From Deltaproteobacteria bacterium (GTDB lineage Bacteria > Desulfobacterota_D > UBA1144 > Nemesobacterales > CSP1-2), in contig JBQTHB010000002.1 in NCBI GenBank assembly GCA_052390235.1, forward strand, positions 300,543 to 364,542: a DNA stretch of 64,000 nt, written 5' to 3'. Below are positions 10,868 to 50,424 of this stretch, in pieces. Each line of letters starts with the position of its first letter. Positions within the stretch are counted from its first letter, which is position 1. The translations under genes were made by a program, and so were the position numbers. The notes below the pieces were generated by a model, which was given only the letters and a program-made list of their open reading frames with translations, had not been told where the DNA came from and made no database searches.

Positions 10868-10920
10868 ATATGCCCGCTAGTTATTAATTCACACCCTCGA
10901 CGAAAGATAACCCCTCGACC

Positions 10921-11215
10921 ATTGTCATTCCCGAACGTTTCTATCGGGAATCCACTTATTATTTAAATACTGGATTTCCACTTTAGTGGGAATGACGCCT
11001 ACATGGTTTGTCATTCTCGAACGCTCCCAGTCCAATACTTTCGGGGACAGTCCTTACCGAGAATCCATCAGTTCTGAAATACCGGATTCCCACTTTCGTG
11101 GTAATGATGCCTGTATGATTTGTCATTCTCGCAGTCTTTTGAGCGGGAATCCACTCATTCCTTCAATACTGGATTCCCGTTTTCACGGGAATGACAGACT
11201 AAAGATTGGAAATGG
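10921..11215. repeat. Three tandem MITE-like palindromic elements between the GIY-YIG gene and cas7
   Basis: ttgtcattcccgaacg...; tttgtcattctcgaacg...ggattcccactttcgtggtaatga; tttgtcattctcgcagtcttttgagcgggaatcc...ggattcccgttttcacgggaatgaca. Confidence 0.85.
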
Positions 11216-11238
11216 CATCTCACAATGACATATCGGAA

Positions 11239-12201
11239 TCACACCTTCATTTCTTGAACTGTAATCCCGTTAAATAACTCCGTGATAGGTCTCGGCGTAA
11301 TCTGAACCCTACCGTCCACTTTGTACTCCACTCTCTCTATCTTCTCTTTGTGCGTGGAAAGGGCCTTGGCAAGCTCTGTAAGGTCAAGTGAGACCTCTGA
11401 AATATCTCTTATCGCCTCGTCCTGCTTTTCTCCTTTCTCAAGTCGTACCATCTTATCCAAATCCCCAATGTGGAAATTCCCTTCTTTATAAACCACCCTG
11501 AGAAGCAACCTCGGCATCTGCCCAGCCTTCGAGCGTGAGATGAGGTTTTTCGTGCCATTCCATATCCCATCCATAAGAAGCGACATATCGCCTTCCGTAA
11601 GCCTCGTCTCTTTCGCTGCATTCTCATTGGCAACGCCCCAAAAGGCGATTAGCGAATAAGACAGGAAGTACTCTTCTCGGAATGATTTTTGCCCTTTTCC
11701 TTCTACTGCGAATGCAGCCGTACCTTTTATATACTGAAGATTTACCCTATGGAGAGAAGCGCCCATTTTAAATTGGACAGGCCCGGTATGAGTTATTGAA
11801 TCTTTGTCTAGTGGAAGTGTTGTGCCGAAGAGTCGTATATCAATACACTCTTTTAAAACATTCTCATTTATGATTTTCTTCATCTCAACTGCGCTGACAC
11901 TTCCTTTCTTCATTCTGCTTCCCGCCGAATCGGTAAAGAAGTGTTTGGCTCTCTGCTTCGCATCCTGCAATGTTCCCTTTTCTTCATCTGCAAATATTTC
12001 CCTTACAAATATTTCCTTCCCCTTAAAATCCTTCAGATAATCTCTGACAGTCCGCTTGAGTCTCACATCCGTTACGAAGTTCTTTCCGGTCTCTTCGTCA
12101 ATTCTCGGTTTGTTCTCGTCAACCGGGTCGCCGTTCGGGTTAGCGTTGCTTACGTCGTAGAGAAATAAAATCTCCGAGCGGTTTTTTATGATTTCACTCA
12201 T
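11239..12201 (-). CDS. cas7: Cas7 (type I-B, Csh2/DevR family)
   Basis: 320 aa; YDVSNANPNGDP...TGKNFVTDVRLKRTVRDY is a classic Cas7 motif. Confidence 0.9.
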   Translation of the reverse strand: MSEIIKNRSEILFLYDVSNANPNGDPVDENKPRIDEETGKNFVTDVRLKRTVRDYLKDFKGKEIFVREIFADEEKGTLQDAKQRAKHFFTDSAGSRMKKGSVSAVEMKKIINENVLKECIDIRLFGTTLPLDKDSITHTGPVQFKMGASLHRVNLQYIKGTAAFAVEGKGQKSFREEYFLSYSLIAFWGVANENAAKETRLTEGDMSLLMDGIWNGTKNLISRSKAGQMPRLLLRVVYKEGNFHIGDLDKMVRLEKGEKQDEAIRDISEVSLDLTELAKALSTHKEKIERVEYKVDGRVQITPRPITELFNGITVQEMKV

Positions 12202-26472: not shown

Positions 26473-26509
26473 TTGCGGCAACTGTGGAATCCCCCACTCC
26501 CGCTCCCTT

Positions 26510-26690
26510 TGACTCTGCTCAGGATGAAGATGGAATGGATTCCCGCTCTGAGGACTGCGGGAATGACAAACAGGCTCACTACCATTCCAAGCCTCATTCT
26601 TGTCGTTTCGAGCGATAGCGAGAAATCCTGAATTAGATTCCTCATTCCTGTCATTCTCACGAAAGTGGGAATCCATAGTTTCGACTCCTC
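26510..26690. repeat. Composite repeat (family-B head, MITE-like ggattcccgctctgaggactgcgggaatgacaaa, tgtcattctcacgaaagtgggaatcc)
   Basis: Near-identical to 42300-42480. Confidence 0.8.
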
Positions 26691-26974
26691 ATATCTCTAT
26701 CCTCCTTTTTTTGAACTGCTCGAACCATGCAGATACAAAGCTGGAATTGCCAGAGCGGGGCAATCCATCATATATTAAAAATATAAATCAATATCAATTT
26801 GATTCTATCGGAATGAGAGGGAATATCAAGCGGAGATTCATAGAAAATTCGGATGTAAATAGTGGGGCTTATGGCGTATTTCGATACGGTTGCCGCGCCA
26901 GCGACGGTTTGCCAGCCGCCGCGAGAAGGGGCTAATTTTGTGAACTGCTATAATTATTTCTCTTCTTCCCAGCG

Positions 26975-27120
26975 CCTCTGCCCCGCCTAAGCCCCGTGTG
27001 CCAGGCGACGACCCCGACCGAGCGCCCCGAGACTTACCCATGCAACGGCGAGGTGGTCTCCGAGCAGGGCGGAGAGAAGCCCGGTCAAGCTGACTATTGC
27101 AATAATCATCGGGGCGCAAA
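26975..27120. repeat. Direct-repeat copy 1 (about 150 bp, about 85% identical to 28243-28400), containing the 3' part of a small membrane protein gene
   Basis: cgagcagggcggagagaagcccggtcaagctgactattgcaataatcatcggggcgc is identical in both copies. Confidence 0.8.
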
Positions 27121-27125
27121 GCGGG

Positions 27126-27149
27126 TTCGGCTTGAGTGGATTGTTAGGC
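27126..27149. repeat. Orphan attC-like half site (L'-R' with GTTAGGC core)
   Basis: cggcttgagtggattGTTAGGC matches cggcttgaatgaattGTTAGGC of the attC at 35643-35664 at 19/21 positions. Confidence 0.45.
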
Positions 27150-27315
27150 GCCGCTGCCATGAGACGCTGGCTTAGGTGCGAGAGGCAGGCAGGCCGCCAG
27201 AGCAAAGCACAACGCCGCCGCAACAAGCAATGCGACGCCAGCGAAGAAACCCGCGAACGAAAAAACCAGAACGGCATCTGCTGCAACCACTAGTTCGGCG
27301 CCATTGCCGGCGCGA

Positions 27316-27711
27316 CTAGAACGCCGCCGCCCCGGACTCCGCCACCGCGTGGTCTTGCTCGCCTGAGCCACCGCTGACCCCGACAGCCCCAATGACCTTG
27401 CCGTCGCGCTTCAACGGAATGCCGCCGGCAAATATCATGATTCGTCCGCCATTTGACGCGTGGATCCCAAAGAATTGCCCTCCGGATTGGCTGTGCCCGG
27501 CCAGATCCTTGGTCGCGATGTCGAAGGCTCGCGATGTGTACGCCTTGTTGATGGAGATGTCAATACTCCCGATCCACGCCCCATCCATTCGCGCGTGCGC
27601 GACGAGATTGCCACCTGCGTCGGCCACAGCGATGTTCATCGGCTGACCGATCTCACCGGCTTTCGCTTCAGCGGCCGAGATTACGCGCCGCGCGTCTCTG
27701 AGTGTCATCAT
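27316..27711 (-). CDS. GlcG/HbpS-like heme-binding protein (DUF336)
   Basis: Start taken at MMTLRDARRVISAAEAKAGEIGQPMNIAVADAGGNLVAHARMDGA; typical GlcG-family sequence. Confidence 0.7.
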   Translation of the reverse strand: MMTLRDARRVISAAEAKAGEIGQPMNIAVADAGGNLVAHARMDGAWIGSIDISINKAYTSRAFDIATKDLAGHSQSGGQFFGIHASNGGRIMIFAGGIPLKRDGKVIGAVGVSGGSGEQDHAVAESGAAAF

Positions 27712-27852
27712 AGCTCCTCCGTTCCTGACCTGATTGCGCTCGACTGGAGCGATGCGGCAAAGTATGCCGAAGTAGCGCCGACTCCGCAAGCGTTCTGACG
27801 CGAGACTGTGGCGAAGGCGCCGAACGCCCAAGCTCAGCCTTGTTGGTATTGC

Positions 27853-28155
27853 TTACCCAGGCATCTTAGCCGCGAGAACGTCAACTTTCTCGATGGACGG
27901 CGGTGTGGAGAATAACTCGCCCGCCTTTGCCATAAGCGCCGCAGCGACCTTGCCAGAGAGGTGAGCTTCCCGGCCCGCTTCGTTGGGAAAGGCATCGAAT
28001 ATGCCAAAGGTGCTTGGACCGAGGCGGATGCCGAACCAAGCAGTGGTGGCTGGCTCCTCCATTACGAGAGGGAGCCCACTAAGTAGAAAACTCTCGACCT
28101 CCTGCTCCTTACCGGGTTTTGCCTCTAGACGAACAAACAACGCTACTTTCACCAT
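27853..28155 (-). CDS. Antibiotic biosynthesis monooxygenase (ABM) domain protein
   Basis: 100 aa; MVKVALFVRLEAKPGKEQEVESFL... shows the ABM ferredoxin-like fold signature. Confidence 0.65.
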   Translation of the reverse strand: MVKVALFVRLEAKPGKEQEVESFLLSGLPLVMEEPATTAWFGIRLGPSTFGIFDAFPNEAGREAHLSGKVAAALMAKAGELFSTPPSIEKVDVLAAKMPG

Positions 28156-28242
28156 GACGTGCCTCCTGTGGTTGCGACGATAAAACGATATATCAAACGA
28201 TTTCCAGTAAGCCTAACACAACATCAAGCCTAACACAACATC

Positions 28243-28443
28243 TCAGCCTCTGCCCCGCCTAAGCGCCGCGTGCCAGGCGGCGACCCCGACCGGCGCGCCG
28301 AGAGTTGCCCATGAAACGGCGTCCCACAGGTGGTCTCCGAGCAGGGCGGAGAGAAGCCCGGTCAAGCTGACTATTGCAATAATCATCGGGGCGCGGAACA
28401 CGGCGAGAAGGCTTGTCTTTGCCGGTGAATTATATTTTTTCAT
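28243..28443 (-). CDS. Small hydrophobic membrane protein; its 3' half is duplicated at 26987-27120
   Basis: 66 aa; ...APMIIAIVSLTGLLSALLGDHL...; 4-nt overlap with the upstream PepSY gene. Confidence 0.45.
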   Translation of the reverse strand: MKKYNSPAKTSLLAVFRAPMIIAIVSLTGLLSALLGDHLWDAVSWATLGAPVGVAAWHAALRRGRG

Positions 28444-29603
28444 CCGACCTCGCCCTCCGCCGGTCTGCGCTCCTGCCTCTCAAGCTCTTCGATTCGCGCC
28501 TCAACGGGCGATTTGCGCCTCGCGAGCCAGAGATATAAGCCGCTTCCCAGCACGATAATTGTGATAACATCGAGCGCCGTCCAGATGATTTTCATCGGCA
28601 TCCCGCCGTAATCCCCAAAGTGAAGCGGCTGCGAGATGAGAAGCGCCGTTAGATACCACGGCAACTCGCCACTCACTGCGACATCTCCGTTTCGGGCATC
28701 GAGGAGGACGGGCTTCAGCAATTTAGAGGTCAAAGGCGTATCGCCCTTCATGAAAGCGGCAAAATGATGGGGGCTTGCAAAATTGGTTTGGGGGAAAGCG
28801 ATGAACGCTATGTCCATATCCGGCTCGACTGTTTTCAGAGCGTCTATACCCTTTTGAATCCGGTACTCGCCCGGGAAGATGGGCGGCAAATCTCTGTAAG
28901 GCGCGGTCATCGCGGCAAGCTCAGTTGACTGCCAATAAGCCAAAAGCGGCGCGGCTAGGGTGTTAATCACTCCCGTAAACCCGACTACCAGCGCCCACGC
29001 AAGCGTAACTATGCCGAGCAGATTATGTAAATCCAGCCACTTAGTGCGGGATGAAATCTCGCCTCGCACCGCCCCGAAGGGCAGTCTCTTCATAAATGGT
29101 CCATAGACAACCGCTCCCGAAACCAGCGATACCACCAGAAGCAGTCCCATGAATCCCAAGAACAGCGCCCCCGGAAGTCCAACGAAAAGGTCTGTGTGAA
29201 ACTCAAACATATAGTACATAAACCCCTGCCTGAGCGGGTACTCAAGCAGTAATTCGCCGGTGCGAATGTCGTAGGTGTAGAAAGCCGTTGATTCTTCGGC
29301 GTCGGGGGTTTTAGCCATAGTCAGCCCCCAAATGTCCGGCTCGTCCTCTTCCTGAAAGACAAACTGCACGGCTTCGCCCGGGCGTCTCGAGCGCGCGTCG
29401 TCAACTATTCGGTCGAGGCTCAGGTGAGGAGCGCCTTCGGGCAGGGCGGGGGCTTCGGGGGCATTGCCGAGCAGATGGTCAATTTCATGATGAAAAATCA
29501 GCGGCAGTCCCGTCAAACACAGAAGAAGCATAAACACCGTGCAGACGAGGCTTGTCCACTTGTGAACCAGATACCATGATTTGATTGTTCTAGCCGTGAG
29601 CAT
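28440..29603 (-). CDS. PepSY-associated TM helix protein (PiuB-like), intact
   Basis: Start at MLTARTIKSWYLVHKWTSL with a GGAGAT RBS; HFGDYGGMPMKIIWTALD C-terminal motif. The ORF track's longer 565-aa version reads through the upstream pseudogene. Confidence 0.75.
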   Translation of the reverse strand: MLTARTIKSWYLVHKWTSLVCTVFMLLLCLTGLPLIFHHEIDHLLGNAPEAPALPEGAPHLSLDRIVDDARSRRPGEAVQFVFQEEDEPDIWGLTMAKTPDAEESTAFYTYDIRTGELLLEYPLRQGFMYYMFEFHTDLFVGLPGALFLGFMGLLLVVSLVSGAVVYGPFMKRLPFGAVRGEISSRTKWLDLHNLLGIVTLAWALVVGFTGVINTLAAPLLAYWQSTELAAMTAPYRDLPPIFPGEYRIQKGIDALKTVEPDMDIAFIAFPQTNFASPHHFAAFMKGDTPLTSKLLKPVLLDARNGDVAVSGELPWYLTALLISQPLHFGDYGGMPMKIIWTALDVITIIVLGSGLYLWLARRKSPVEARIEELERQERRPAEGEVG

Positions 29604-29620
29604 GGGGATATCTCCTTTTT

Positions 29621-30137
29621 TTAAAACTCCACCCTGAGCGTCCCAATCACCGCCCGAGCCGCCGCGCGTTCTACTTCTGTTGTGCCTCCTCCGATGAAAA
29701 AGAATTCCTCGTCGAATAGGTTTTTCACGTTCACCTGAAGCGAGATACGTTCGCGCCTGTAAAAGAGCAGCGCGTCGGTCTGAACCCAGCCGTCCGCATT
29801 GCTGGTGTTGGCTTTGGACAACCGCTTCCGCAGTCTCGTCAAAGTCGGTCAGGCACATCTGCACGCTGTACCCTGGACTGATCAACTCTTCTTCGGAGGA
29901 CTTGAGACCGGCGAGTACCTTCGTAGCGTCCATGCCGGGCGCATAGCCGGGTTGCGAGAAATCGATCAATGTTGGATCCAGCCCGATCACGAACACACTC
30001 TTCTCATTTGGCACAGCTGCCCCCATCTGGTTGGAGTTAACGTCAAGACCTACCTTCGGCCCTATGAAGGTCGCGGCACGGATCGTCCTTCGTCTCTGGT
30101 GCTCCTCGATATCCGCCCAACGGGCTGGGTGGGGCAT
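29621..30137 (-). pseudogene. TonB-dependent receptor 3' remnant (5' part missing, frameshifted)
   Basis: C-terminus ...FFFIGGGTTEVERAAARAVIGTLRVEF ends with the terminal aromatic residue typical of TonB-dependent receptors. Upstream barrel-like sequence is in another frame. The gene is cut off at the attC at about 30115-30185. Confidence 0.5.
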
Positions 30138-30185
30138 CAGCTGCGGCGCGTTTTGTGCGCCGTCAGCTGCATGCTGTTGTTAGGC
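30115..30185. repeat. attC-like site (integron cassette recombination site): GCCCAAC...GTTAGGC with imperfectly paired internal arms
   Basis: R''-type GCCCAAC (30115-21) and R'-type GTTAGGC (30179-85). The arms catcagctg-cggcgc and gcgccgtcagctgcatg pair with extrahelical bases. Confidence 0.55.
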
Positions 30186-30260
30186 GCTCACTTGATGTGT
30201 CCGCGTATCACTGCGAGGACACATCAACCTGCTCCAGTCCCTGCTGAGTCACGCGACACA

Positions 30261-33200
30261 CTACTTGCGGATACCATTCAGGAACTCGTCCACGTACGGG
30301 AAACTCCTCTCGATAACTTCCAGCAACGTCGTGCCGACCTGCGTGGTCAGCCGACTGAGATCAAAGCACTCCAAAACCGCACGCAGATGTTCGTCGCTGC
30401 CAGATTGAACACCGTGTCGCTCCAACAGATACCTGGCAACAACTTGCAGCTCGCTCGGAGGAATCTCCTCGAATGATCGCGGCCCCCTGGTTCGCAACCT
30501 GATCGGCGGGCTTCCCGTCATTCTGACAATGGAGAAAAGGATGCCGCTCTTACCAGCCTCATCTTCACAAACAACACGTCCCTGCCAAATGGCATGGGAC
30601 AGCACCTTGTTCATAGTGCTCTTGAGATCATGGCCCATTCGCTTGATGCCGCAGCCTCTCAGGTAGATGTCGTAGGCTCGTTTCGCAACCACTGGACCTT
30701 CGACCTCGACGATCCGGACAATGCCTTCCGAGACTCCATGCTCGTTGACGCTGCGAGGGTCATTCCCTGGAGGGCCGACATACTCCACATAATCGCTGAA
30801 TGGCAGATTGGCGTCTCGCGAGGTGACCGAAGAAACGATCAATCCCGTGCGGCCAAAGGGAATCCCGTCGTCGTTCGACGGATTCAGGCGAGCCTCTGCT
30901 GAAGGCGCGTCTCCTTTTGCTGAAGTGGTTCGTGCCGGCGGTACCTCAGAAAGCCATGCGTGAGCACTCTCGACAACCGCCGGCTCGATGAGAGAAGACA
31001 CGACGCGGTGCTCGGTATGCACGCTCCTCGGCGCGCCTTCGGCCCCAATCGGTTCGATGCCGCGTTCGGCTAACGTCTTCATGAGGTCGTCCAGGATGTC
31101 CTTGCGCCGCCGGATGAAGGCGGAGGCGAAACACCGCCAGAACACCCAACCGGCGCGCTCCAGGACGCGCTGGCGCTGCATGTCGTCGGCCCACTTGTCC
31201 GCTCCGTGGTACTTGTCGCCGTCGCATTCGACCGCCAGCCGCGCATCGTTGTGTCCCTCAACGACCATGTCGATGCGGTACTGGCCGACACGCACTTGTG
31301 GGGTGACCCAGTAGCCACGTTGCGTTAGTGCATCGTACATCTCGCCCTCGAAGGGGGACTCGCAAAGTGTGCGCAGATCCGCCACGCGAAGCTCATCCTG
31401 GGCGAAGGGTGTTGCGAAGTGCGCGATGAGACTGCGGCGCAACCGATCCGCATCGCTCAGATGCTCCAGTGCCACCGAGCGCACTAGGTACATCCGGTCC
31501 CTCGCGCGCGACGCTGCCACGTTGAAACGCTGGGCAAAAGTGTCGCGGGAGAGCGGCGCACCGACCTCGTTGGGCGCAGACACCATCGAGAGAAACATGA
31601 TGTCCCGCTCTTTACCCTGAAACGTGCGTGCATCGCCGCAAGCGATCTGATGGCGCTGCGTTAGTTCCGGTCCGAGTTCGGCGGTTAGCCGCTCCCATAT
31701 CAAAAGAGCCTGCTTGTCGGCGAGCAGCGAGACGACCCCGATTGAGCGCCGGGCCATGTTTGGGTCAGACACAATCGCCTTGATTTCATCGACGATGAAG
31801 CGCGCTTCGGACACATTGACGTCGCCATTGCGGTAGCCGTCTTCCACCACCACGTCCACGAGGGGCGGGTCGAGCCGCTCGGAGGCTTTGGGCATGCGCA
31901 GTGGCCGGAGCTCGTGATTGTAGAACTCCCGCTTAGAGTACTCGATGATCGGGCCGACGCAGCGGAAATGCTCCTTCAACATCACGGCGCTCTTGGCAAA
32001 GACTACTTTGAACAGATCATAGATGGAGCGCTCAGGAGACATCTGCGGGCGGTACGTTTCCACCTGATTGCCGAGGAAGCGACTCATAAGACTGCGAATC
32101 TTCTCTTCCTCAAGTCCGACGCCCTCTGGGGAGACTTGCTTGTCGTCGCCGACGATGAGGACTTTCTTCCCCCGTAACAAGGAAGGCAATGCCGTTAGGT
32201 CGGACTGCGACGCTTCGTCGATGATGACGAGGTCGAAGCAGCCGAGTTCTGCAGGCAGCGATTCGGACACGCGATAGTGCGGCATGATCCAGCACGGCAC
32301 GGCAGGATTCGCCTGCGATGCTGCCATCCGCGCATCCTGTCGATAGCGCACCGCACGCTTGCCAGTGCCCTTGCCGATTTTCTGAATGGCGTTGAGATAC
32401 GCCTGCAGGGCCGCCCGAATGCTGGGCGAAGCATTCTCTGCGAGCTTCAGCCACGTCCGCTTCACAACGATATCGCGATAGGCGCGCGACAAATCGCTCT
32501 CCACTTCGTGGCGATCCTTCGCCAGCTTCTTTAGCGCCTCCTGAGCGTCAATCAATTCGAGGTGGGTGGCGAGGCGCCTCAGGCGCCAAGCGGTGCGCCA
32601 GTTGTCCGGTAGAAGGCTATCCGCCGTGCTCTCAAGGGGTCGCCTGAGTGCATCCGCGTACTTGGGCGCCCCCGAGGACTCGATTTTTCCGCAAACCTCA
32701 TGCACGGCGGCGAGTTGCGTTCCCAAGCCAAGTACGCGCGACAGCTCCGCCATCAGCGCCGTCCAATCAGCCTGCATCCGGGTGTATTCAATCTCTGGGT
32801 TGCCGAGCGTCTCCGCAAGAAACCGACGAATGTCCTCTATGACGCGGCCCGTGCGGCCTACTAGTATCTTCTGAAACCGCTCTTTTTGGTACCAGACGTT
32901 GGCGAGTCGGTTTTTGGTGAGGTGGTGCCGCAGTGCCCTCTCCAGCTCAGCGAGTCGCTGCGTGTCATCCGCCAGCTGGCGGACGTGAGCCCAGTTGGGG
33001 AAGACGAGAGAAGCTGCGCCGCAGACTTCTCCTTCCGCTTTCACTACGCCCTTCACCTTGAGGTAGAGAGCGTAGTCTTGGGCGGCGGCCAGTCCGCCTT
33101 CCGGCTTGTCCCCCGGTAGGGCTTCAAGCTGTAGCTCGGGGGCAAGGGCGTTCCAGCGCAGGGCCAGCTCGCGCAGGGACTTCAACAACGCCAGATGCTC

Positions 33201-35117
33201 CGCGACATACTCCCAGCTCTCGGCGTTGGGAGGGGGATGGCCGAGAACCCGAATGCTGTCCAGCTGCTTCTTCTGGGTCGACTTGCCGAACAGTCCTTTC
33301 ACACCAAAGGGCCTTCGGCCCTTGGCGAGATTGCTCACGGCCTCTGCGATCTCGGCATCAAGCTCGATGCCTTCGGGTGTGGTAACCGGCCGCTCAAGAA
33401 ACGTCTTGCGCCGGTCGACAGCCTGCTCAAGCTCGGCGCCGAGAGCTTCTAGAATCGGCACCATGTTGTCGTTGCCGCCGCGCCGCAGACGTTCTCGCAT
33501 GGCGACGGTCCATGGTCGATGCGCCTGCGCGACTTCATCGCGTAGGCGCCGAAGGGCTTCGATGTCCGTGAGAAGTGTTTGAGCGAGGGCGAGCGTCTCC
33601 TGGCTCGAATCGGCGAGCGCCGGAACGTCGCCGCTCTCCACGCCCTGTTTCAGTTTTTCGAACTGCGACAGATCCTGGTGGACTTCGAGTACTGCCTTGG
33701 AGTCGGGAAACTCCACGAGTTGCGGAAGCGACGCATCGAGGTAGTCGATGTCTTGGCCTAGCGCACGCCTTGCATCCCGTAGCCGCACAACATCCGCGTC
33801 CACGAACTGCGGGGCGAACTCTGGAGTGACTCCAAGCGTGTCAGGAATCCACTCAAACTGGTCGACGTTCCTGGCCACTTCTCGCGCCGCGTCTTGAGGG
33901 TCAATCTCTTCGGTTTCCATCTTGACCGTGGCGAGGTTCCGCTGCGCCCATTCACCAATCTTGCGGTCAATGCTGGCAAGCTTGCCGTGGAGGGCATCAA
34001 TGGACTCTCCAAGATGGTTGATGGCTCTCGCGGTGCTGGCGCGGTCGAGGCCCTGCACCTCGGAGGCAATCTTCTGGATCGCATACTCGAACTGCTTCAT
34101 CCCTTCCTGTTCGCTGGTCAGCAGCGAAATGGCGAGCGGACGGATTTCCTGAGGGAGCTGGTCTTGGAGCACCGCCAATGCCGGGTCCTTCATGGAGGTC
34201 ACAAGCACCCGTTTGCCTTCAGCCAGGTAGTGACAGATGACGTTGGCGATCGTGTGTGTCTTGCCAGTGCCAGGTGGACCCTGCACGACTACGCCATCGG
34301 AGTTATCCAGCAGCTGGATGATGCGGACCTGCTCGTCGTTAAAGGCTTTGGGGAAGTAGAGGTCACGAGCCTTCTTGCCGCTCGCGTTGTCCTGTGGTTG
34401 ATATGAAGCGGAGACCCCACGGAACGTCAGCAGTTCGACGACCGGGTTGGAGGTGTCCGGGTCGGTCACAACGGCAGCCACTGCGGGTGGGTAGGACTTC
34501 GCTTCTTCGGCGCGTTTCTTCAGCTTCTCCAGGTCCTGCAGAAACAAGCTGTTGGTGCGCGGACGCGCAAAGAGCACCCACGTATCAGTGACTTTGAGTT
34601 TGTCGTCGGACTTCGGCAGCGTCCGGTCGGCATCCGACACTTCGTTCGGCCAGTAGATGCCGTTCGCGTCGAGGTTGGTAGCCGCGGTGCGAAGCAAGGG
34701 CTCGAAGGTTCCGCGGTCGTACGGCGAAAACGTTGTTGTAGCCTTCCCGAAGAACTCCTTCGCCGCTTTCTCCAGCTCGGCAACGCCGGGGTTATCGACG
34801 GATGCGTACCAGTCCACCTCTATACGAGCATCGACATCCCGAGGTCGGATTTCCATTTCAGCCGTCACAGGGTTGAGCGACATTTCGGCCAGCCGCCCGA
34901 CCAAGGGATAGCTCACAGTGGCGCCTTTGGAGTTCCAGATTCCGAGCCCCAGGAGAGTTCGAGTTGCGCTTCGACGATGCTGCCATCGAGTTGCTGCTTG
35001 AGCGTGAAAAGCTGGGAGTAAAGGCGAATGGTCTTGCGCCGGAGTTTCTCTTCTTCGGCCCAGGGGCGCCACTTCGTGTCGAGGTACGTGGCGAACTGGG
35101 ACCTGACCATGGCACAT
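30261..35117 (-). CDS. SF1 helicase (AAA_11/AAA_12, Upf1/Dna2-like) fused to a Vsr-like/DUF559 restriction-endonuclease-fold domain and DUF3320; defence-type protein; about 63% GC
   Basis: Walker A VVVQGPPGTGKTHT; Walker B DLVIIDEASQ; VGDDKQVSP; endonuclease-fold motif RIDMVVEGHNDARLAVECDGDKYHG; C-terminal DUF3320-like tail. The N-terminal 60 aa as called are probably out of frame (see 34913-35590). Confidence 0.8.
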   Translation of the reverse strand: MCHGQVPVRHVPRHEVAPLGRRRETPAQDHSPLLPAFHAQAATRWQHRRSATRTLLGLGIWNSKGATVSYPLVGRLAEMSLNPVTAEMEIRPRDVDARIEVDWYASVDNPGVAELEKAAKEFFGKATTTFSPYDRGTFEPLLRTAATNLDANGIYWPNEVSDADRTLPKSDDKLKVTDTWVLFARPRTNSLFLQDLEKLKKRAEEAKSYPPAVAAVVTDPDTSNPVVELLTFRGVSASYQPQDNASGKKARDLYFPKAFNDEQVRIIQLLDNSDGVVVQGPPGTGKTHTIANVICHYLAEGKRVLVTSMKDPALAVLQDQLPQEIRPLAISLLTSEQEGMKQFEYAIQKIASEVQGLDRASTARAINHLGESIDALHGKLASIDRKIGEWAQRNLATVKMETEEIDPQDAAREVARNVDQFEWIPDTLGVTPEFAPQFVDADVVRLRDARRALGQDIDYLDASLPQLVEFPDSKAVLEVHQDLSQFEKLKQGVESGDVPALADSSQETLALAQTLLTDIEALRRLRDEVAQAHRPWTVAMRERLRRGGNDNMVPILEALGAELEQAVDRRKTFLERPVTTPEGIELDAEIAEAVSNLAKGRRPFGVKGLFGKSTQKKQLDSIRVLGHPPPNAESWEYVAEHLALLKSLRELALRWNALAPELQLEALPGDKPEGGLAAAQDYALYLKVKGVVKAEGEVCGAASLVFPNWAHVRQLADDTQRLAELERALRHHLTKNRLANVWYQKERFQKILVGRTGRVIEDIRRFLAETLGNPEIEYTRMQADWTALMAELSRVLGLGTQLAAVHEVCGKIESSGAPKYADALRRPLESTADSLLPDNWRTAWRLRRLATHLELIDAQEALKKLAKDRHEVESDLSRAYRDIVVKRTWLKLAENASPSIRAALQAYLNAIQKIGKGTGKRAVRYRQDARMAASQANPAVPCWIMPHYRVSESLPAELGCFDLVIIDEASQSDLTALPSLLRGKKVLIVGDDKQVSPEGVGLEEEKIRSLMSRFLGNQVETYRPQMSPERSIYDLFKVVFAKSAVMLKEHFRCVGPIIEYSKREFYNHELRPLRMPKASERLDPPLVDVVVEDGYRNGDVNVSEARFIVDEIKAIVSDPNMARRSIGVVSLLADKQALLIWERLTAELGPELTQRHQIACGDARTFQGKERDIMFLSMVSAPNEVGAPLSRDTFAQRFNVAASRARDRMYLVRSVALEHLSDADRLRRSLIAHFATPFAQDELRVADLRTLCESPFEGEMYDALTQRGYWVTPQVRVGQYRIDMVVEGHNDARLAVECDGDKYHGADKWADDMQRQRVLERAGWVFWRCFASAFIRRRKDILDDLMKTLAERGIEPIGAEGAPRSVHTEHRVVSSLIEPAVVESAHAWLSEVPPARTTSAKGDAPSAEARLNPSNDDGIPFGRTGLIVSSVTSRDANLPFSDYVEYVGPPGNDPRSVNEHGVSEGIVRIVEVEGPVVAKRAYDIYLRGCGIKRMGHDLKSTMNKVLSHAIWQGRVVCEDEAGKSGILFSIVRMTGSPPIRLRTRGPRSFEEIPPSELQVVARYLLERHGVQSGSDEHLRAVLECFDLSRLTTQVGTTLLEVIERSFPYVDEFLNGIRK

Positions 35118-35590
35118 CTGTCGTAGTCGGAGAGCATGACAGTCGCCTCGGGGGCGATGACCGGTCTGCCCTGCTCTGGTGAACTTGCCGATGAATAATA
35201 TGTGCCCTCTGCAATCAGGCTGGCGCCGTCCGTGGCCTCGCGCAGCCGCGGCTCTTCAGTTGTCCCCTGCGCCATCTGCACCCAAGGCCGCAGTAACGGG
35301 CTGGCAATACCCGGAGGCCTCATCTCGTGCAGCCGCTCAACGGCAAGCCAAATCTCGTCCTCGCTCTCGGGGCCGTTGACGTTAAGGCGAATGCCTGGCA
35401 GTCCTTGAATCTCGTGCTCGTAGAGTGCGAAGAGACCGTGTGCGGCAACGGTAGCGGCTGGCTTGCCTCGCAGCCGCGCGGACTGCTGAGAGAATTCGAT
35501 GAGGGAGAGAAGCCGAGTCTTTTCCTCGTTCATGAGGCTTCTCATGTCATTGTCTGGGGTTTCAAAACATCGCATTCTTATCACCCGCAT
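34913..35590 (-). CDS. Probable N-terminal (DUF4011-like) segment of the helicase gene, in a different frame, implying a frameshift near 34950-35000
   Basis: 225-aa ORF starting 13 nt after the attC and overlapping the helicase ORF by about 200 nt in another frame. Confidence 0.45.
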   Translation of the reverse strand: MRVIRMRCFETPDNDMRSLMNEEKTRLLSLIEFSQQSARLRGKPAATVAAHGLFALYEHEIQGLPGIRLNVNGPESEDEIWLAVERLHEMRPPGIASPLLRPWVQMAQGTTEEPRLREATDGASLIAEGTYYSSASSPEQGRPVIAPEATVMLSDYDRCAMVRSQFATYLDTKWRPWAEEEKLRRKTIRLYSQLFTLKQQLDGSIVEAQLELSWGSESGTPKAPL

Positions 35591-35604
35591 CAGGCGTCAG
35601 GTGC

Positions 35605-35664
35605 GCCTAACGCCTGAATTAAGCCGCGCCGCGAAGCGGCATCGGCTTGAATGAATTGTTAGGC
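35605..35664. repeat. attC site (about 60 bp): GCCTAAC...GTTAGGC core and inverse core with internal imperfect palindrome
   Basis: GCCTAACgcctgaattaagccgcgccgcgaagcggcatcggcttgaatgaattGTTAGGC; begins 2 nt after the stop of the upstream cassette ORF. Confidence 0.65.
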
Positions 35665-35665
35665 A

Positions 35666-36169
35666 CTACTTGCCTACCAGTACGGCGTCCATGTCGTACT
35701 GGTAGTAGGCACGGTCAGCACATTTGGCGTTGAACCTAGCGACAGCGGCATTGACTTGCTCCACGCGTGCGTTTGCGTCAGGTAAGCGATTGTTATGGGC
35801 TGCTACGAGCTGTCGATGGCGATCAACAAGGGCGTTAAAACTATCAATGGAGTCTTGGCTATAAACGTCGACCAGACCTTCCTGTGCAGTAATTTCTGTC
35901 TCTAACCGATTGATTTTTACTGCATTTGCGGCAATTGAAGCCTGAAGTTGATCAACTTGGTCGCCACTCGCGTTAATCGCATTTTGCTCTTTGACGCATT
36001 GCGACAGTTGATCGCGTGCAAGCACTGGCCCTTTGTGCCGCGCGCCAATTGATAGACCACGAGTACGAAAGCCAGCACGACGGCGTCCGCGAGCATCTGC
36101 ATCTTGGATGATCAATGTGATAGCAAACCCGAACAAGCCAAAAAGTGCGGCTCTTCTACTAACGGACAT
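35666..36169 (-). CDS. Hypothetical secreted coiled-coil protein (first integron cassette ORF)
   Basis: Start MSVSRRAALFGLFGFAITLI with a GGGGAG RBS, about 25 nt after the attI junction core ACCCAAC (36191-97). Confidence 0.55.
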   Translation of the reverse strand: MSVSRRAALFGLFGFAITLIIQDADARGRRRAGFRTRGLSIGARHKGPVLARDQLSQCVKEQNAINASGDQVDQLQASIAANAVKINRLETEITAQEGLVDVYSQDSIDSFNALVDRHRQLVAAHNNRLPDANARVEQVNAAVARFNAKCADRAYYQYDMDAVLVGK

Positions 36170-36190
36170 GATTGAACTCCCCACTGTAGC

Positions 36191-36324
36191 ACCCAACTTA
36201 TGATTGAGCGGAATCATTCCGCCTAATCACCGAATTTTGTGTATTATCTGAAACAATTCGGGATAATAATCTTAATATCCAGAATGAAAGTAAACTCTTT
36301 TCGGGAGTTTCGCAAGAGCAATTT
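36191..36324. promoter_or_regulatory. Putative attI region with cassette promoter, between the intI' start and the first cassette
   Basis: The junction core ACCCAAC reads GTTGGGT on the cassette strand; AT-rich 130 bp upstream of the intI fragment. Confidence 0.35.
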
Positions 36325-36673
36325 ATGGAAAATAAGCCAAAAATGTTGGAACAAGTCAGAATGGTCGCCAGAGCAAGACATTTGAGTCATAAGACCGAAG
36401 ACGTTTATCATAATCGCATCAAGCGGTTTATTTTGTTTCACAACAAACAACATCCGAAGGAAATGAGCAATGGCAGGGGTTGAGAAATTCTTGACCTATC
36501 TTGCCGTAGAGAAATATGTGTCTGCCTCTACCCAGAATCAGGCGTTCAGCGCCTTATTGTTCCTTTACCGAGAGGTACTCAATAAACCCTTGGAAGGTCC
36601 AATCAACTCTTTGCGTGCGAAGCGACCTAAAAGACTGCCGACAGTTTTGACCCGGGAGGGTAGCTTTGCCTGA
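36325..36673 (+). pseudogene. intI: Integron integrase (IntI) N-terminal fragment, frameshifted at about 36470 and truncated after about 117 aa
   Basis: MENKPKMLEQVRMVARARHLSHKTEDVYHNRIKRFILFHNKQHPKEM, then GVEKFLTYLAVEKYVSASTQNQAFSALLFLYREVLNKPLEGPINSLRAKRPKRLPTVLTREG. This closely matches the IntI N-terminal domain, for example the FHNKKHP...EEFLTYLAV...STQNQALNALLFLY...RLPVVLT pattern of Vibrio IntIA. No catalytic domain is present. Confidence 0.75.
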
Positions 36674-36866
36674 TTCTGGGCTTCCTCCTTGGGCGAGGGG
36701 GATATTCAAGTCCTGCGACGGGGTTTCCAGCCAGCCCTCTGTATCGCCCGCCGCTAGACCGGAGGATTCAAAAACCAGCGTCAGAGCGAATAGAATCTGC
36801 GCTACCCGGAAAATTCTGGATTTTTTCATCTGCTCCTCCTAGAGGCGGGGTGCCGCCATTTGACTG

Positions 36867-37328
36867 TTAATTCAGCGTTACTGCCATTGGGACTCTGAGC
36901 GTGTTGGCAAAATATGCCTCATAGCCGCCGTCCCCGTATAAAAACGCCGAGCCGTCGTCGAACACTACTGTCAGCGCGTTCTCTGCCTTGAAGGCATCGC
37001 TTTGGCTCACGCGCTGCCACTCTCCCATGGCGGCAGGATGAGCCGAGTCCACGTCCGCCGCCGAGACTTCTCTATCAATAAAATTGACGATTCTCTCTTT
37101 TATATTGTGGATAAATCCCTCGATAATATCTCTGCGCTCATTAGGGGAAATCTCCTCTGCGCCTGAGCGTGTGTTCCACTGCGAATCCGCCGGGAATATT
37201 CTGCGACAGCGCCGCGCAACGCATCCCGCCACTCCGTAGCCGCAGAATGTCTCCGCGTCCGGGGATTTGCGGCTCAGTTCAAGCCCGATGTCTCCTGCGG
37301 TTCTCTGGCGTTTTTCCACACGTTTCAT
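36867..37328 (-). CDS. Hypothetical protein
   Basis: Start MKRVEKRQRTAGD with a GGAGG RBS; 154 aa. Confidence 0.45.
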   Translation of the reverse strand: MKRVEKRQRTAGDIGLELSRKSPDAETFCGYGVAGCVARRCRRIFPADSQWNTRSGAEEISPNERRDIIEGFIHNIKERIVNFIDREVSAADVDSAHPAAMGEWQRVSQSDAFKAENALTVVFDDGSAFLYGDGGYEAYFANTLRVPMAVTLN

Positions 37329-37553
37329 TAAATAATCTCCTCTTAATGGTACTCTGATACTGATATTGATAATCAATCTGAATCTACATCGGCTCGGCGG
37401 CTGTGTCAAGGGTTTCCGGGAGGAATTTTGAAGCCGCTGGCGTGGGCTGATTAGATAATTCCAAATAAATATGTCAGGATATAGCGGTATCTGAACTTTC
37501 CTGGTGAACCGCTCGCGGCTGGGCGGCAATTTCAATGTAATGGAGGAATATCT

Positions 37554-38327
37554 ATGGCTATTGGTGTCTGTCCTACATTTTGGCTCGATAAACCGCAAAC
37601 CGATAGGCTCAAGGCTCTGGCTAGGGCGGGAGGCGACGGCGCGATTGAACTATTGCGCGGGACTCAACCGGCGCCGCGACCTGGTCAATATGAAGACTTG
37701 AGCTTGAAGCTGTATTTCAGCGCTGGGGGTGATCCATCGGGCGGGCCCGATACAATGGTAGTAACTCTGCTAATTGTAAACCTCGGCGCTGAACCGTTGC
37801 TTTTGTCGGAACCCCCCGCTGACCCCTGGGGACAACTCCGCTACGCCCCAGTGGTGATGAATCGCCTCGATGCGTTTGATAAACCGCGGGGTTCTGACCG
37901 TGTTGGCGACCCCCTGCCATCTGGCTTTGTGAAGCAGGAGAGCTATAGTTGGGACAAACATAGCGAGTGGGTACAATTCTGGATTGACCCCGCCCCGATA
38001 GACGCCCTAGGAGCGGGCTCGTCGTCGGTCGGGGTATTTCAAATTGTCAAAGATTACGGGATGTACTCAGGCGCGGGAGGCGCGGTTAAATTATCTAGCT
38101 CCGGGCGTTTTGACCACTGCTATATCGGGGGCGAATACAACTATAATAGCGTTAAAAACTGCGGCGCTATCGGTATGAAAGACTGCGGCACTGCGCGGGA
38201 CTTCTTTGATAAATTTGTCGCCGGCGCTGAGCGTTATACCGATACCGATGCCTCAGGCTCTGGGGCTTACTGCGCTTGCAGTAGCATAAACGGTCCTTTC
38301 AACTGTATAACGGCGGTGATTCCATAA
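37554..38327 (+). CDS. Hypothetical Cys-rich protein, first gene of a three-gene operon
   Basis: 257 aa; C-terminal Cys cluster (CYIGG...NCGAIGMKDCG...YCACSS...NCI). Confidence 0.5.
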   Translation: MAIGVCPTFWLDKPQTDRLKALARAGGDGAIELLRGTQPAPRPGQYEDLSLKLYFSAGGDPSGGPDTMVVTLLIVNLGAEPLLLSEPPADPWGQLRYAPVVMNRLDAFDKPRGSDRVGDPLPSGFVKQESYSWDKHSEWVQFWIDPAPIDALGAGSSSVGVFQIVKDYGMYSGAGGAVKLSSSGRFDHCYIGGEYNYNSVKNCGAIGMKDCGTARDFFDKFVAGAERYTDTDASGSGAYCACSSINGPFNCITAVIP

Positions 38328-49521: not shown

Positions 49522-50424
49522 GTGAACTCAGCGCCAGATAACATCGCTAAATTTAGGTATTATCTCTGCTCCGAAAGGGGATATTCCAAGCACACTCTAA
49601 GGGCTTACATCTCGGATATTCGTCAATTTGCCTCATTCCTCGGGGAGAGAAAGAGCGCCGAGGCATCCCTCGTGTCCGTGGAAGAAATTGACGTAAGGGC
49701 GTACCTAGCCCGCATTCACAGGAAAAATAGCAAAACCTCGATTTCCCGCAAGCTCACATCCATAAGAGCGCTTTTTGAGTTTCTCCTGCGAGAGGGCATC
49801 GTCGCCAAAAATCCAGCGAAATTGCTCCCTACGCCCAAGGCTGAGAAAAAGCTCCCGTCTTTCCTCACAGTGGACGAGGCTTTTCGGCTTCTCGACTCCC
49901 CCGGCTGGGACGCAAAACCCCTCGCGCTGAGAGATGCGGCAATTCTCGAGCTTCTGTACTCCAGCGGACTTCGCGTGAGCGAGCTTACGGGGATAAAAAT
50001 CACCGAGCTTGACCTCTCCGAGGCTGTGGTGAAGGTGCTGGGCAAGGGGGCGAGGGAGAGAGTAGTACCCGTAGGCTCGAAGGCGGCGGCGGCGCTTGGG
50101 CGATATATTGAGCGCAGAGAATTGCTTGGGCCCAGGTCGGACTCGCTCTTTCTCAATTCCAGAGGGGGGGCGCTTACGCCCAGAAGCGTCGCCGTAATCG
50201 TGAAGAAATGCTCCCTTCTATCAGGCATAGCCAAGAACGTAAGCCCTCACGTGCTGAGGCACACATTCGCAACGCACCTGCTCGGAGGAGGCGCCGACCT
50301 TCGCGCCATTCAAGAGATGCTAGGACACAAGAGCCTTTCAACCACTCAGCGCTACACTCACACCTCCATAGAGAAAATCATGGAGATTTACGATAAAACC
50401 CATCCGAGAGCAAACAACAAATGA
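49522..50424 (+). CDS. xerC: Tyrosine recombinase XerC
   Basis: 300 aa; [12 protein letters not shown]...[14 protein letters not shown]; located upstream of hslVU. Confidence 0.85.

What the first reader, a model, noticed from the sequence alone, without database searches (positions are those of the whole stretch)
27126..36673. Remnant chromosomal integron: truncated intI, attI junction and attC sites with GTTAGGC/GCCTAAC cores
The plus-strand fragment at 36325-36673 has strong similarity to the integron-integrase N-terminal domain but is frameshifted and lacks the catalytic domain. Upstream lies an attI-like junction (ACCCAAC at 36191-97). Two full attC-like sites follow the minus-strand ORFs: GCCTAAC...GTTAGGC at 35605-35664 and GCCCAAC...GTTAGGC at 30115-30185. 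A half site lies at 27126-27149. The ORFs 36169 to 35666 and 35590 to 30261 each begin 13-25 nt after a core site and end just before the next attC, which is the arrangement expected for integron cassettes. With intI inactivated the array would be frozen.
Basis: partly seen in the sequence, partly recalled or inferred. Interest (0 to 1): 0.8.

Follow-up and report, generated by a model that had tools for sequence, protein, structure and literature searches.

The report
Decayed chromosomal integron with dead integrase
This is the wreck of an integron, a bacterial gene-capture device: one third of its integrase gene, its insertion site and a short row of captured gene cassettes survive in an uncultured deltaproteobacterium, and this is an ordinary kind of find, made a little more notable by one very large captured gene.

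Summary
The intI fragment at 36325-36658 (+) matches the integron-integrase model TIGR02249 at E 2.6e-33, against about 1e-5 for XerC/D. It has a 1-nt frameshift near 36468 and stops after about 110 residues; no IntI catalytic part exists elsewhere in the window. Homology to two related loci starts exactly at the proposed attI core (36191-36197).

- The 5.5-kb cassette gene, an SF1 helicase-nuclease resembling a candidate anti-phage protein, is frameshifted near 34940.
- The third cassette is a stub fused to a TonB-receptor remnant.
- Two more cassettes lie at 27150-28216, one with an internally deleted attC (27819-27847).
- The attI lacks 41 nt.
- "Frozen" is an inference: a trans-acting IntI is untested.

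This is a new member of a known kind and of low-to-moderate interest. The mildly unusual points are the cassette size, an attC 90-94% identical to clinical aadA-type attCs, and a chimeric intI.

The parts
36325..36658 (+). intI pseudogene: N-terminal approximately 110 codons only, +1 frameshift near 36468, truncated after ...PTVLTRE; chimeric (36210-36468 is 87% identical in DNA to locus L084, the rest is not)
   Evidence: TIGR02249 E 2.6e-33, positions 1-105/315, against XerC/D about 1e-5. Frames. tblastn with five full-length IntIs finds only 36325-36658 plus the separate XerC. Chimerism.
36191..36324 (-). attI region. Recombination core GTTGGGT (minus strand) at 36191-36197. Inverted-repeat motifs at about 36199-36230 and 36240-36270. 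One of two direct repeats, 41 nt, is missing relative to L084/L085.
   Evidence: Three-way alignment A6: homology to L084 and L085 begins exactly at the core and is absent on the cassette side.
35611..36196 (-). Cassette 1 (586 bp). ORF 36169->35666, 167 aa, with a signal-like N-terminus and no family match. The stop codon lies 1 nt before attC_A.
35605..35664 (-). attC_A, 60 nt and canonical: a 7-bp R box and extrahelical T and G on the bottom (+) strand. 90-94% identical to the attCs of aadA/aac(6')/catB8 cassettes.
   Evidence: R1 87 bits, R2 63.7 bits. 3733 plasmid records match, 3470 over at least 80% of the query. Compared with sequences extracted. Fold z -3.4/-3.9.
30121..35610 (-). Cassette 2 (5490 bp). 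A single approximately 1776-aa SF1 helicase + MTES_1575/DUF559 nuclease + DUF3320 gene (PDC-S37/ProA/Hhe-like), broken by a frameshift at about 34934-34952. The likely start is ATG 35533 and the stop is at 30261. A hairpin lies at about 30192-30227.
   Evidence: Pfam/NCBIfam. PADLOC PDC-S37 7.5e-76. Homologues are continuous across the frame switch. Hairpin.
30115..30185 (-). attC_B, 71 nt. All modelled pairs are standard, with two single-base bulges on the correct arm spaced 6 bp apart as in attC_A. The 3' spacer is 7 nt longer than consensus.
   Evidence: R1 19.9 bits E 0.021, R2 39.4 bits E 2e-8. Fold z -3.4/-4.6. No significant match in plasmids.
29819..30120 (-). Cassette 3 stub: 5' end of a cassette with an ORF starting at ATG 30026 (unknown family), cut off near 29820-29840.
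29621..29818 (-). Last approximately 65 codons of a TonB-dependent siderophore receptor gene (ends ...RVEF*), fused to the cassette stub.
   Evidence: TIGR01783 positions 582-649/649, E 3.5e-6. Translation.
28243..29603 (-). PepSY_TM gene (29603->28440) and a 66-aa small membrane ORF (28443->28243). These show no cassette features and have no attC of their own. They sit between parts of the array.
   Evidence: Pfam PF03929 8.6e-56. Gene calls of an independent contig.
28209..28242 (-). Perfect 17-nt tandem duplication, each copy carrying a GTTAGGC core (minus strand). The proximal core (28211-28217) is the 5' boundary of the next cassette.
   Evidence: TRF. Alignment A5 with Xanthomonadaceae cassettes.
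27819..28216 (-). Cassette 4. ABM/quinol-monooxygenase-like gene 28155->27853. Its attC (27847->27819) has lost the whole stem by internal deletion, leaving R'' + spacer and spacer + R' (GTTCGGC).
   Evidence: The protein sits in a >=90% identity cluster of 82 members, one named member from a Xanthomonadaceae bacterium. In loci carrying that member's protein the gene is followed 2 nt after its stop by an attC of 30-32 bits. Both cassette ends align. Weak CM hit of 9.5 bits.
27150..27818 (-). Cassette 5: HbpS/GlcG-like gene 27711->27316 plus 166 nt of non-coding tail.
   Evidence: Pfam PF03928 4.4e-43. Gene call.
27121..27149 (-). Left half (R''-L''-loop) of an attC of the same family as attC_A, broken after ...CCCGCTTTGCG.
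   Evidence: R1 23.6 bits, with the score carried by the left arm. R2 truncated match 15.7 bits, model positions 1-29. Compared with the aac(6')-Il attC.
26974..27117 (-). Partial second copy of the small ORF. It is a direct repeat of 28246-28394 (91% identity, last 67 nt identical) and, with it, brackets cassettes 4-5.
   Evidence: blastn.

Best explanation
This is a decayed chromosomal integron in an uncultured bacterium that NCBI labels a Deltaproteobacteria MAG.

How a live integron works (established knowledge): IntI recombines the folded bottom strand of a cassette's attC with the double-stranded attI. New cassettes enter next to attI, and attC x attC recombination excises them.

What is shown here: the platform and array have the standard layout. 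intI is on the + strand, attI lies about 130 nt upstream, and the cassettes run divergently on the minus strand. Almost every part is damaged:
- intI is chimeric, frameshifted and cut after its N-terminal DNA-binding third.
- attI has lost 41 nt.
- Cassette 1 and its attC are intact.
- Cassette 2 is a 5.5-kb helicase-nuclease gene, resembling candidate anti-phage proteins, with a frameshift. Its attC has an over-long spacer.
- Cassette 3 is a stub fused by deletion to a TonB-receptor remnant.
- Two more cassettes follow, one with an internally deleted attC and one with a half attC. They are bracketed by a roughly 145-nt direct repeat.

What is inferred: no integrase is made from this locus, so the array cannot rearrange by itself. 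It is being eroded by ordinary deletions, frameshifts and homologous recombination.
For: - IntI identity of the fragment. Full-length relatives that are 55-62% identical over this stretch score 411-494 bits on TIGR02249, above the cutoff of 265.
- No catalytic part anywhere in the window.
- attI boundary from three-way homology.
- attC models trained without window sequences pick the three sites.
- Model validation: R2 recovers all 8 class 1 attCs in two plasmid arrays on the correct strand at 24.8-68 bits. R1 finds 40 sites in loci that encode IntI homologues, 32 of them upstream of intI and divergent from it, as in the window.
- attC_A is 90-94% identical to aadA-type attCs over its full length.
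- The ABM gene is a true cassette elsewhere, and both of its boundaries align.
- Helicase frameshift.
- Receptor remnant.
- Independent contigs from public read sets are 100% identical over 28328-36327 and 36303-42327.
Against: - The feature that defines IntI, the extra segment in the catalytic domain, cannot be checked because that part of the gene is gone.
- attC_B has a 3' spacer 7 nt longer than the model, and its R box does not form in the free-energy minimum.
- At 5.5 kb, cassette 2 is well beyond usual cassette sizes.
- Its homologues at 60-86% DNA identity lie outside integrons and have no attC.
- No sigma-70-like promoter facing the cassettes was found.
- The order of the pieces around the 67-nt exact repeat (27051-27117 and 28328-28394) rests on the MAG assembly. 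Independent contigs stop at that repeat.
- No recombination activity or inactivity was measured.
Confidence: 0.9

Rival explanations
1. The array is not frozen. A second, intact IntI elsewhere in the genome, or arriving on a plasmid, still excises and inserts cassettes here in trans, at least at attC_A.
For: attC_A is structurally perfect and scores as high as clinical attCs. According to the IntegronFinder paper (PMC4889954), about 20% of integron-bearing genomes encode more than one IntI, and half of the attC clusters that lack an integrase are in genomes with an IntI elsewhere. Assembly graphs of two read sets break at 36303-36327, next to attI, which could reflect array variants in the population.
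Against: Only 64 kb of a 574-kb contig was visible, and no second intI is in it. Every other site is damaged: attI lacks 41 nt, attC_B has an over-long spacer, and the other two attCs are a relic and a half. Reported recovery of cassettes falls with size, and one whose attC sites lay 4 kb apart was not recovered (10.64898/2026.03.17.712381).
Confidence: 0.15
2. The attC sites are a cluster created by cassette insertion at secondary chromosomal sites, and the tyrosine-recombinase fragment next to them is unrelated debris. On this reading there never was an integron platform here.
For: attC clusters lacking an integrase are common, and secondary-site insertion is documented (PMC4889954). Cassettes 4-5 do lie apart from the main array, behind genes that show no cassette features.
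Against: The fragment is IntI-type. The sequence between it and cassette 1 is homologous to the intI-proximal region of two related integrons up to the exact crossover core. In L084 that region is followed by four attCs. Orientation and spacing match a standard platform.
Confidence: 0.03
3. The locus is a metagenome-assembly chimera that joins DNA from different organisms: 60% GC cassettes against a 53% GC chromosome.
For: GC is 0.60 for cassette 2 and 0.42 for attI+intI, against 0.53 for the flanks. No single independent contig spans 36303-36327 or the 67-nt repeat.
Against: Compositional jumps are expected for horizontally acquired cassettes. Homology to L084 runs continuously across the 36303-36327 break, from 36195 to 36468. 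An 8-kb independent contig covers 28328-36327 with 100% identity.
Confidence: 0.04

Closest known systems
Chromosomal integrons with inactivated intI, and attC clusters lacking an integrase (CALIN), as catalogued by IntegronFinder (Cury et al. 2016, PMC4889954)
   Same: The layout is the same: an intI remnant, attI, and a divergent array of promoterless cassettes, each ending in an attC. Decay of intI is a known fate. The two closest relatives found here, L084 and L085, also carry truncated intI genes.
   Different: Here only the N-terminal third of intI survives. The published pseudogene screen, which looks for the C-terminal IntI segment and PF00589, would therefore not see it. The two full attCs are 5.4 kb apart, beyond that program's default 4-kb clustering distance. 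That the locus would be missed by default settings is my inference and was not run.
attC sites of class 1 integron resistance cassettes (aadA1, aadA10/24, aac(6')-IIa, catB8)
   Same: attC_A is the same 60-nt site at 90-94% identity. It has an identical stem architecture and the same extrahelical bases.
   Different: Here it belongs to a cassette encoding a 167-aa protein of unknown function, in an environmental MAG. It does not accompany a resistance gene on a plasmid.
Phage-resistance integron cassettes (BRiCs; 10.1101/2024.07.02.601719)
   Same: Cassette 2 encodes a protein related to candidate and known anti-phage helicase-nucleases: PADLOC PDC-S37 at 7.5e-76, NCBIfam ProA at 4.4e-77 and Hhe, all below the family cutoffs. 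As reported for BRiCs, its homologues also occur outside integrons.
   Different: At 5.5 kb it is much larger than usual cassettes, and the gene is frameshifted. No defence activity was tested, and no family cutoff is met.
Xanthomonadaceae integron cassette encoding an ABM-type (quinol monooxygenase-like) protein
   Same: The protein falls in the same >=90% identity cluster, the DNA aligns along the whole gene, and both cassette ends (R' core + TTNCNGGAAA, R'' + spacer) line up.
   Different: The window copy has lost the attC stem by internal deletion, so it is fused to the next cassette.

Membership tests
Integron integrase (IntI) | N-terminal SAM-like DNA-binding domain closer to IntI than to XerC/D or phage integrases | tested here: met
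   TIGR02249 115.7 bits, E 2.6e-33, against XerD 24.2 and XerC 23.6 bits. Full-length relatives score 411-494 bits, above the cutoff of 265.
Integron integrase (IntI) | IntI-specific additional segment within the C-terminal catalytic domain, and the catalytic RKHRHY residues | tested here: not met
   The gene ends at about 36658. tblastn with five full-length IntIs finds no C-terminal part in the window. The fragment is a pseudogene and does not encode a functional member.
Integron (platform plus array) | attI adjacent to intI, with the crossover in a GTTRRRY core at the first cassette boundary | tested here: met
   The GTTGGGT core is at 36197->36191, 128 nt from the intI ATG. Homology to L084/L085 ends exactly there. 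41 nt is missing relative to the relatives.
Integron (platform plus array) | At least one cassette ending in an attC detected by a covariance model, on the strand divergent from intI | tested here: met
   Two full attCs and one half attC, all on the minus strand. The models were home-made and not IntegronFinder's own, but they were validated on known arrays.
Integron (platform plus array) | Cassette promoter Pc reading into the array | tested here: inconclusive
   A simple sigma-70 consensus scan found no minus-strand site between 36197 and 36750. Promoter rules for this lineage are not known to me.
attC recombination site | R''/R' inverse cores (RYYYAAC / GTTRRRY) that pair | tested here: met
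   Site A GCCTAAC/GTTAGGC gives 7 bp. Site B GCCTAAC/GTTGGGC gives 7 bp with one G-T pair.
attC recombination site | Imperfect stem with extrahelical bases on the R''-L'' arm, which marks the bottom strand | tested here: met
   Site A has T and G bulged on the + (bottom) strand, and site B has T and C. In both, the bulges are 6 bp apart and the second is followed by 6 bp, as in aadA1.
attC recombination site | Short, roughly symmetric unpaired central spacer (about 5 and 6 nt) | tested here: inconclusive
   Met for site A (5/6 nt). Site B has 4-5 nt on one side and 12-13 nt on the other, scored by the models as a 7-nt insertion.
attC recombination site | Recombination by IntI as a folded single strand | not testable with these tools
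   This needs a suicide-conjugation or excision assay.
Anti-phage helicase-nucleases (ProA, Hhe, PDC-S37) | Whole-protein score above the family cutoff | tested here: not met
   ProA 259.8 bits against a cutoff of 1500. Hhe 155.3 bits against a cutoff of 2000. PDC-S37 scores 254 bits over the C-terminal half only. The protein is related but is not a member by the curated thresholds.

The most novel reading that the evidence does not exclude
The 5.5-kb helicase-nuclease gene was really captured and moved as a single integron cassette. That would put it well above the approximately 2 kb quoted as the largest known cassettes in 2016, and above the 4-kb attC spacing reported as no longer recoverable. 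A near-copy outside any integron (L185) shares DNA homology starting at the R' core, so this pair could capture a step of how a large chromosomal defence gene becomes, or stops being, a cassette.
Probability: 0.25. Interest if true: 0.5.

Novelty: new member of a known kind. Interest (0 to 1): 0.3.

Why it matters
Dead integrons are common, and this one changes nothing fundamental. It is useful in four modest ways.

- It shows what standard integron detection is likely to miss. Only the N-terminal third of intI survives, and the attC sites lie more than 4 kb apart or are reduced to relics.
- It places an attC almost identical to that of clinical aadA/aac(6')/catB cassettes in an uncultured environmental deltaproteobacterium. 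That bears on where resistance-cassette recombination sites circulate.
- It offers a candidate for an unusually large defence-gene cassette.
- It shows one small cassette shared between this MAG and Xanthomonadaceae, with conserved boundaries.

Tried and rejected
- A strict pattern-plus-fold scan (RYYYAAC...GTTRRRY with a forced R box) found only site A in the window and nothing in the related arrays. It was too rigid, so I replaced it with covariance models.
- The one genome-contig scan, with TruD as query, found no close relative: best hit 49% (an Ignavibacteriales MAG), the rest below 40%, most of the strongest hits archaeal. No syntenic locus with an intact integron could therefore be compared.
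- Site B has no significant relative among plasmid sequences.
- The window's 1618-aa ORF is not on record as a called gene.
- I tested whether the helicase is two translationally coupled genes, because a GTGA overlap at 34913-34916 was called that way in an independent contig. Rejected: homologous proteins run straight through the frame switch.
- I looked for attCs around five helicase homologues and found none. A 66-nt stretch upstream of the L185 copy pairs at its ends but does not fold like an attC.
- I considered that the small ORF copy at 26974-27117 is the long variable loop of an attC that starts at 27149. Rejected: no L'/R' partner exists, and neither model gives a convincing full-length hit there.
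- A weak hit at 27207-27299 (9.1 bits, E 4.3) was not accepted as an attC.
- No Pfam, NCBIfam or PADLOC family was found for cassette 1 or the cassette 3 stub, and no Pfam or PADLOC family for the three large ORFs at 37554-42245.

Full report
**Source and setting.**
- The window is chromosomal. It carries uvrC, hslU, xerC, truD, an acetylornithine-type aminotransferase, an iron ABC transporter and a type I-B CRISPR-Cas locus.
- Exact protein look-ups place it on a 573,721-bp contig of an NCBI MAG labelled 'Deltaproteobacteria bacterium', locus tags ACT4NX_.
- No close relative exists among species-representative genomes. The best TruD match is 49%.
- Independent contigs assembled from public read sets are 100% identical to 28328-36327 and 36303-42327.

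**The integrase fragment.**
- 36325-36483 and 36470-36673 are two + strand frames.
- The frame change sits in codon 49, at ...CCG AAG GAA ATG AGC A|ATG GCA GGG..., and is a 1-nt insertion relative to homologues.
- The repaired 111-115 aa sequence matches NCBIfam TIGR02249 (integron integrase) at 115.7 bits, E 2.6e-33, over model positions 1-105 of 315. XerD and XerC score 24.2 and 23.6 bits. Pfam Phage_int_SAM_4 scores 1e-26.
- 2183 database proteins match at E <= 1e-10, the best at 70% identity.
- Four full-length relatives from metagenomes, 55-62% identical to the fragment over this stretch, score 411-494 bits on TIGR02249, above the cutoff of 265. The family the fragment belongs to is therefore IntI.
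- Similarity ends at 36658 (...PTVLTRE). tblastn with IntI1 and four environmental IntIs finds nothing further in the window except the housekeeping xerC at 49522-50424, which scores 340.7 bits on TIGR02224.
- The fragment is also chimeric. 36210-36468 is 87% identical in DNA to locus L084. After the frameshift, no similarity to L084 is detectable by blastn, although L084 and L085 stay alike in the three-way alignment. The second half resembles a different IntI lineage, such as P0002.

**attI.**
- The three-way alignment of the window with L084 and L085, the loci of the two closest IntI fragments, shows homology from inside intI leftwards through a set of inverted-repeat motifs.
- The homology stops exactly at ...CACCCAAC|T (window), ...CATCGAAC|T (L084) and ...CCCAAC|T (L085).
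- To the left of that point the sequences are unrelated cassettes. This is the expected signature of the attI crossover at G|TT of GTTGGGT, read on the minus strand at 36197->36191.
- The core lies 128 nt from the intI ATG. By my position count on the sequence printed, attI1 of a class 1 integron lies about 137 nt from its intI1 ATG.
- The window lacks 41 nt that in L084 and L085 hold one of two direct repeats (GTGTATTATCTGGAATNATTCGGGATAATA). By analogy with attI1 these could be accessory integrase-binding sites; that is inference.

**attC sites.**
- I extracted eight attCs from two annotated class 1 arrays on plasmids and built model R1 from six of them, giving the canonical structure explicitly.
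- Run on the whole window, both strands, filters off, R1's best distinct hits are:
  - 35605-35664 (-): 87 bits, E 1.4e-19.
  - 27088-27149 (-): 23.6 bits, E 0.0024, with the score carried by the left arm.
  - 30115-30185 (-): 19.9 bits, E 0.021, with every modelled pair standard.
  - The next hit has E 0.9.
- R1 then found 40 sites in 82 loci that encode IntI homologues. 32 of them lie upstream of intI and divergent from it, as in the window. Seven lie downstream of intI on the same strand, the reverse of the window's arrangement.
- Model R2, built from those 40 sites, recovers all eight class 1 attCs at 24.8-68 bits on the correct strand. Two of these were never used in training.
- In the window R2 gives 63.7 bits (E 4e-15) for site A and 39.4 bits (E 2e-8) for site B. 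The half site scores 15.7 bits as a 3'-truncated match to model positions 1-29.
- Site A is 90-94% identical over its full length to the attCs of aadA, aac(6')-IIa and catB8 cassettes. 3733 plasmid records match it.
- Read on the minus strand, the two sites have the same stem plan:
  - Site A: GCCTAAC-AATTC-ATT[C]AAGCCG[A]TGCCGC-loop-GCGGCG-CGGCTT-AAT-TCAGGC-GTTAGGC.
  - Site B: GCAT[G]CAGCTG[A]CGGCGC.
  - In both, the bulged bases are 6 bp apart and are followed by 6 bp. They therefore fall on the + (bottom) strand as T and G in site A and as T and C in site B.
- Site B departs from the consensus in a 3' spacer that is 7 nt too long.
- Both sites fold better than shuffled controls, with z between -3.4 and -4.6.

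**The cassettes.**
- Cassette 1 (36196->35611, 586 bp) holds a 167-aa ORF with a signal-like N-terminus and no family match.
- Cassette 2 (35610->30121, 5490 bp):
  - It holds an SF1 helicase (AAA_11/AAA_12) with an MTES_1575/DUF559 nuclease domain and DUF3320.
  - It is related to NCBIfam ProA (4.4e-77) and Hhe, and to PADLOC PDC-S37 (7.5e-76). All scores are below the family cutoffs.
  - It occupies two frames. Eight of ten homologous proteins align continuously from frame -1 (35533-34934) into frame -3 (34952 onwards). The window gene is therefore frameshifted near 34940, and its likely start is ATG 35533.
  - Homologues at 60-86% DNA identity lie in ordinary chromosomal or island contexts, are often broken themselves, and have no attC nearby.
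  - According to the IntegronFinder paper the largest known cassettes were about 2 kb in 2016 (PMC4889954). A 2026 preprint reports that cassette recovery falls with size and that one cassette whose attC sites lay 4 kb apart was not recovered (10.64898/2026.03.17.712381).
- After attC_B:
  - A cassette 3 stub begins, with an ORF from ATG 30026.
  - It gives way near 29820-29840 to the last 65 codons of a TonB-dependent siderophore receptor...NLFDEEFFFIGGG...RVEF*, TIGR01783 positions 582-649 of 649.
  - A PepSY_TM gene and a 66-aa ORF follow. These show no cassette features and sit beside an iron ABC transporter.
  - My reading is that a deletion joined the array to them. That is inference.

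- The 100-aa ABM-type protein (28155->27853) belongs to a >=90% identity cluster of 82 members; one named member is from a Xanthomonadaceae bacterium.
- In six loci that carry that member's protein, the gene is followed 2 nt after its stop by an attC of 29.7-32.5 bits.
- The DNA alignment shows conserved cassette ends:
  - Upstream: GTTAGGC|TTACTGGAAA in the window against GTTGGTC|TTCCCGGAAA.
  - Downstream: the window keeps R'' + spacer (ACCAAC AAGGC) and spacer + R' (TTGGGC GTTCGGC) but has lost the stem between them.
- This relic at 27819-27847 is also a weak R2 hit of 9.5 bits.
- The next gene is HbpS/GlcG-like (27711->27316). It is followed 166 nt later by the half attC.
- The half attC breaks after its loop and is joined to a partial second copy of the 66-aa ORF.
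- That copy (26974-27117) and the full one (28246-28394) form a direct repeat of 91% identity. The last 67 nt are identical. Together they bracket cassettes 4-5.
- This pattern fits insertion or duplication by homologous recombination. I could not reconstruct the order of events.

**Mechanism and status.**
- Shown: the parts, their order and their orientation are those of an integron, and most parts carry lesions.
- Inferred from established integron biology: without the catalytic domain no integrase is made here, so cassettes cannot be excised or inserted in cis.
- Not tested: whether another IntI acts in trans, whether attC_A and attC_B still recombine, and whether the cassettes are transcribed. 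A simple promoter scan found no minus-strand site facing the array.

**Comparison and novelty.**
- Integrons with decayed integrases, and attC clusters without an integrase, are well documented (PMC4889954). The two nearest relatives found here are decayed as well.
- The locus is a new member of a known kind.
- By inference from the published method, default IntegronFinder settings would probably not report it. The method uses a C-terminal IntI profile plus PF00589, and it clusters attCs within 4 kb.
- Points of some interest:
  - The size and content of cassette 2.
  - The near-identity of attC_A to clinical attCs.
  - The chimeric intI.
  - The cassette shared with Xanthomonadaceae.

Noticed in passing
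window 240-3700 and 5275-13961: A CRISPR array (repeat GTTTCAATCCCTTATAGGTAGGCTAAGAAC) sits next to a type I-B cas operon (Cas1, Cas3, Cas8b/TM1802). The whole block has about 42% GC, against about 53% for the rest of the chromosome. The repeat's GGCTAAGAAC gives a chance-level hit to the attC model at 2725-2754.
   Followed up: partly
window 36210-36658 against L084:9958-10480: The intI fragment is a mosaic. The attI and the first 47 codons are 87% identical in DNA to L084. From the frameshift onwards, similarity to L084 is no longer detectable by blastn, and the protein resembles another IntI lineage (P0002). The frameshift sits at the junction and could be a recombination scar.
   Followed up: partly
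L084:10001-10668 and L085:10001-10516: The two closest relatives of the intI fragment are themselves truncated (157+64 aa and 171 aa). Each still has attCs upstream: four sites of about 113 nt in L084, with toxin-antitoxin cassettes, and one in L085. Integrase loss seems recurrent in this IntI lineage.
   Followed up: partly
window 35605-35616 against L185:6666-6677: A helicase homologue in a non-integron context (L185, 85% DNA identity) shares homology that starts at or just before the R' core of attC_A (GTCAGGC against GTTAGGC). The 66 nt upstream in L185 pair at their ends but do not fold like an attC. This could be a decayed cassette boundary or a trace of cassette origin.
   Followed up: partly
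window 26974-27117 and 28246-28394; 28209-28242: A direct repeat of about 145 nt (91% identity, last 67 nt identical) brackets cassettes 4-5. A perfect 17-nt tandem duplication carrying two GTTAGGC cores sits at the upstream cassette boundary. The order of the rearrangements is unresolved, and independent contigs end inside the exact repeat.
   Followed up: partly
window 36303-36327: Two independent short-read contigs (L001, L003) end here and overlap by only 25 nt, right between attI and the intI start. This may reflect a branch in the assembly graph, that is, strain variants at the insertion site.
   Followed up: no
window 37554-42245 (+) and 36867-37328 (-): Three consecutive large ORFs (257, 583 and 717 aa) and a 153-aa ORF lie directly beside the truncated intI. 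None has a Pfam or PADLOC match. The 717-aa protein, the only one looked up, is the sole member of its 90% identity cluster. The deletion that cut intI also appears to have cut the 3' end of a small signal-peptide ORF (36554-36829).
   Followed up: no
window 26473-26960: A 45% GC non-coding spacer lies between the iron ABC transporter and the integron debris. It contains short inverted repeats of the type CATTCCCGC...GCGGGAATCC. It has no attC hit, and its function is unknown.
   Followed up: no
window 30192-30227: An 11-bp perfect inverted repeat (TTGATGTGTCC...GGACACATCAA), with fold z -3.8, lies between the helicase stop codon and attC_B and may be a transcription terminator carried inside the cassette.
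   Followed up: partly
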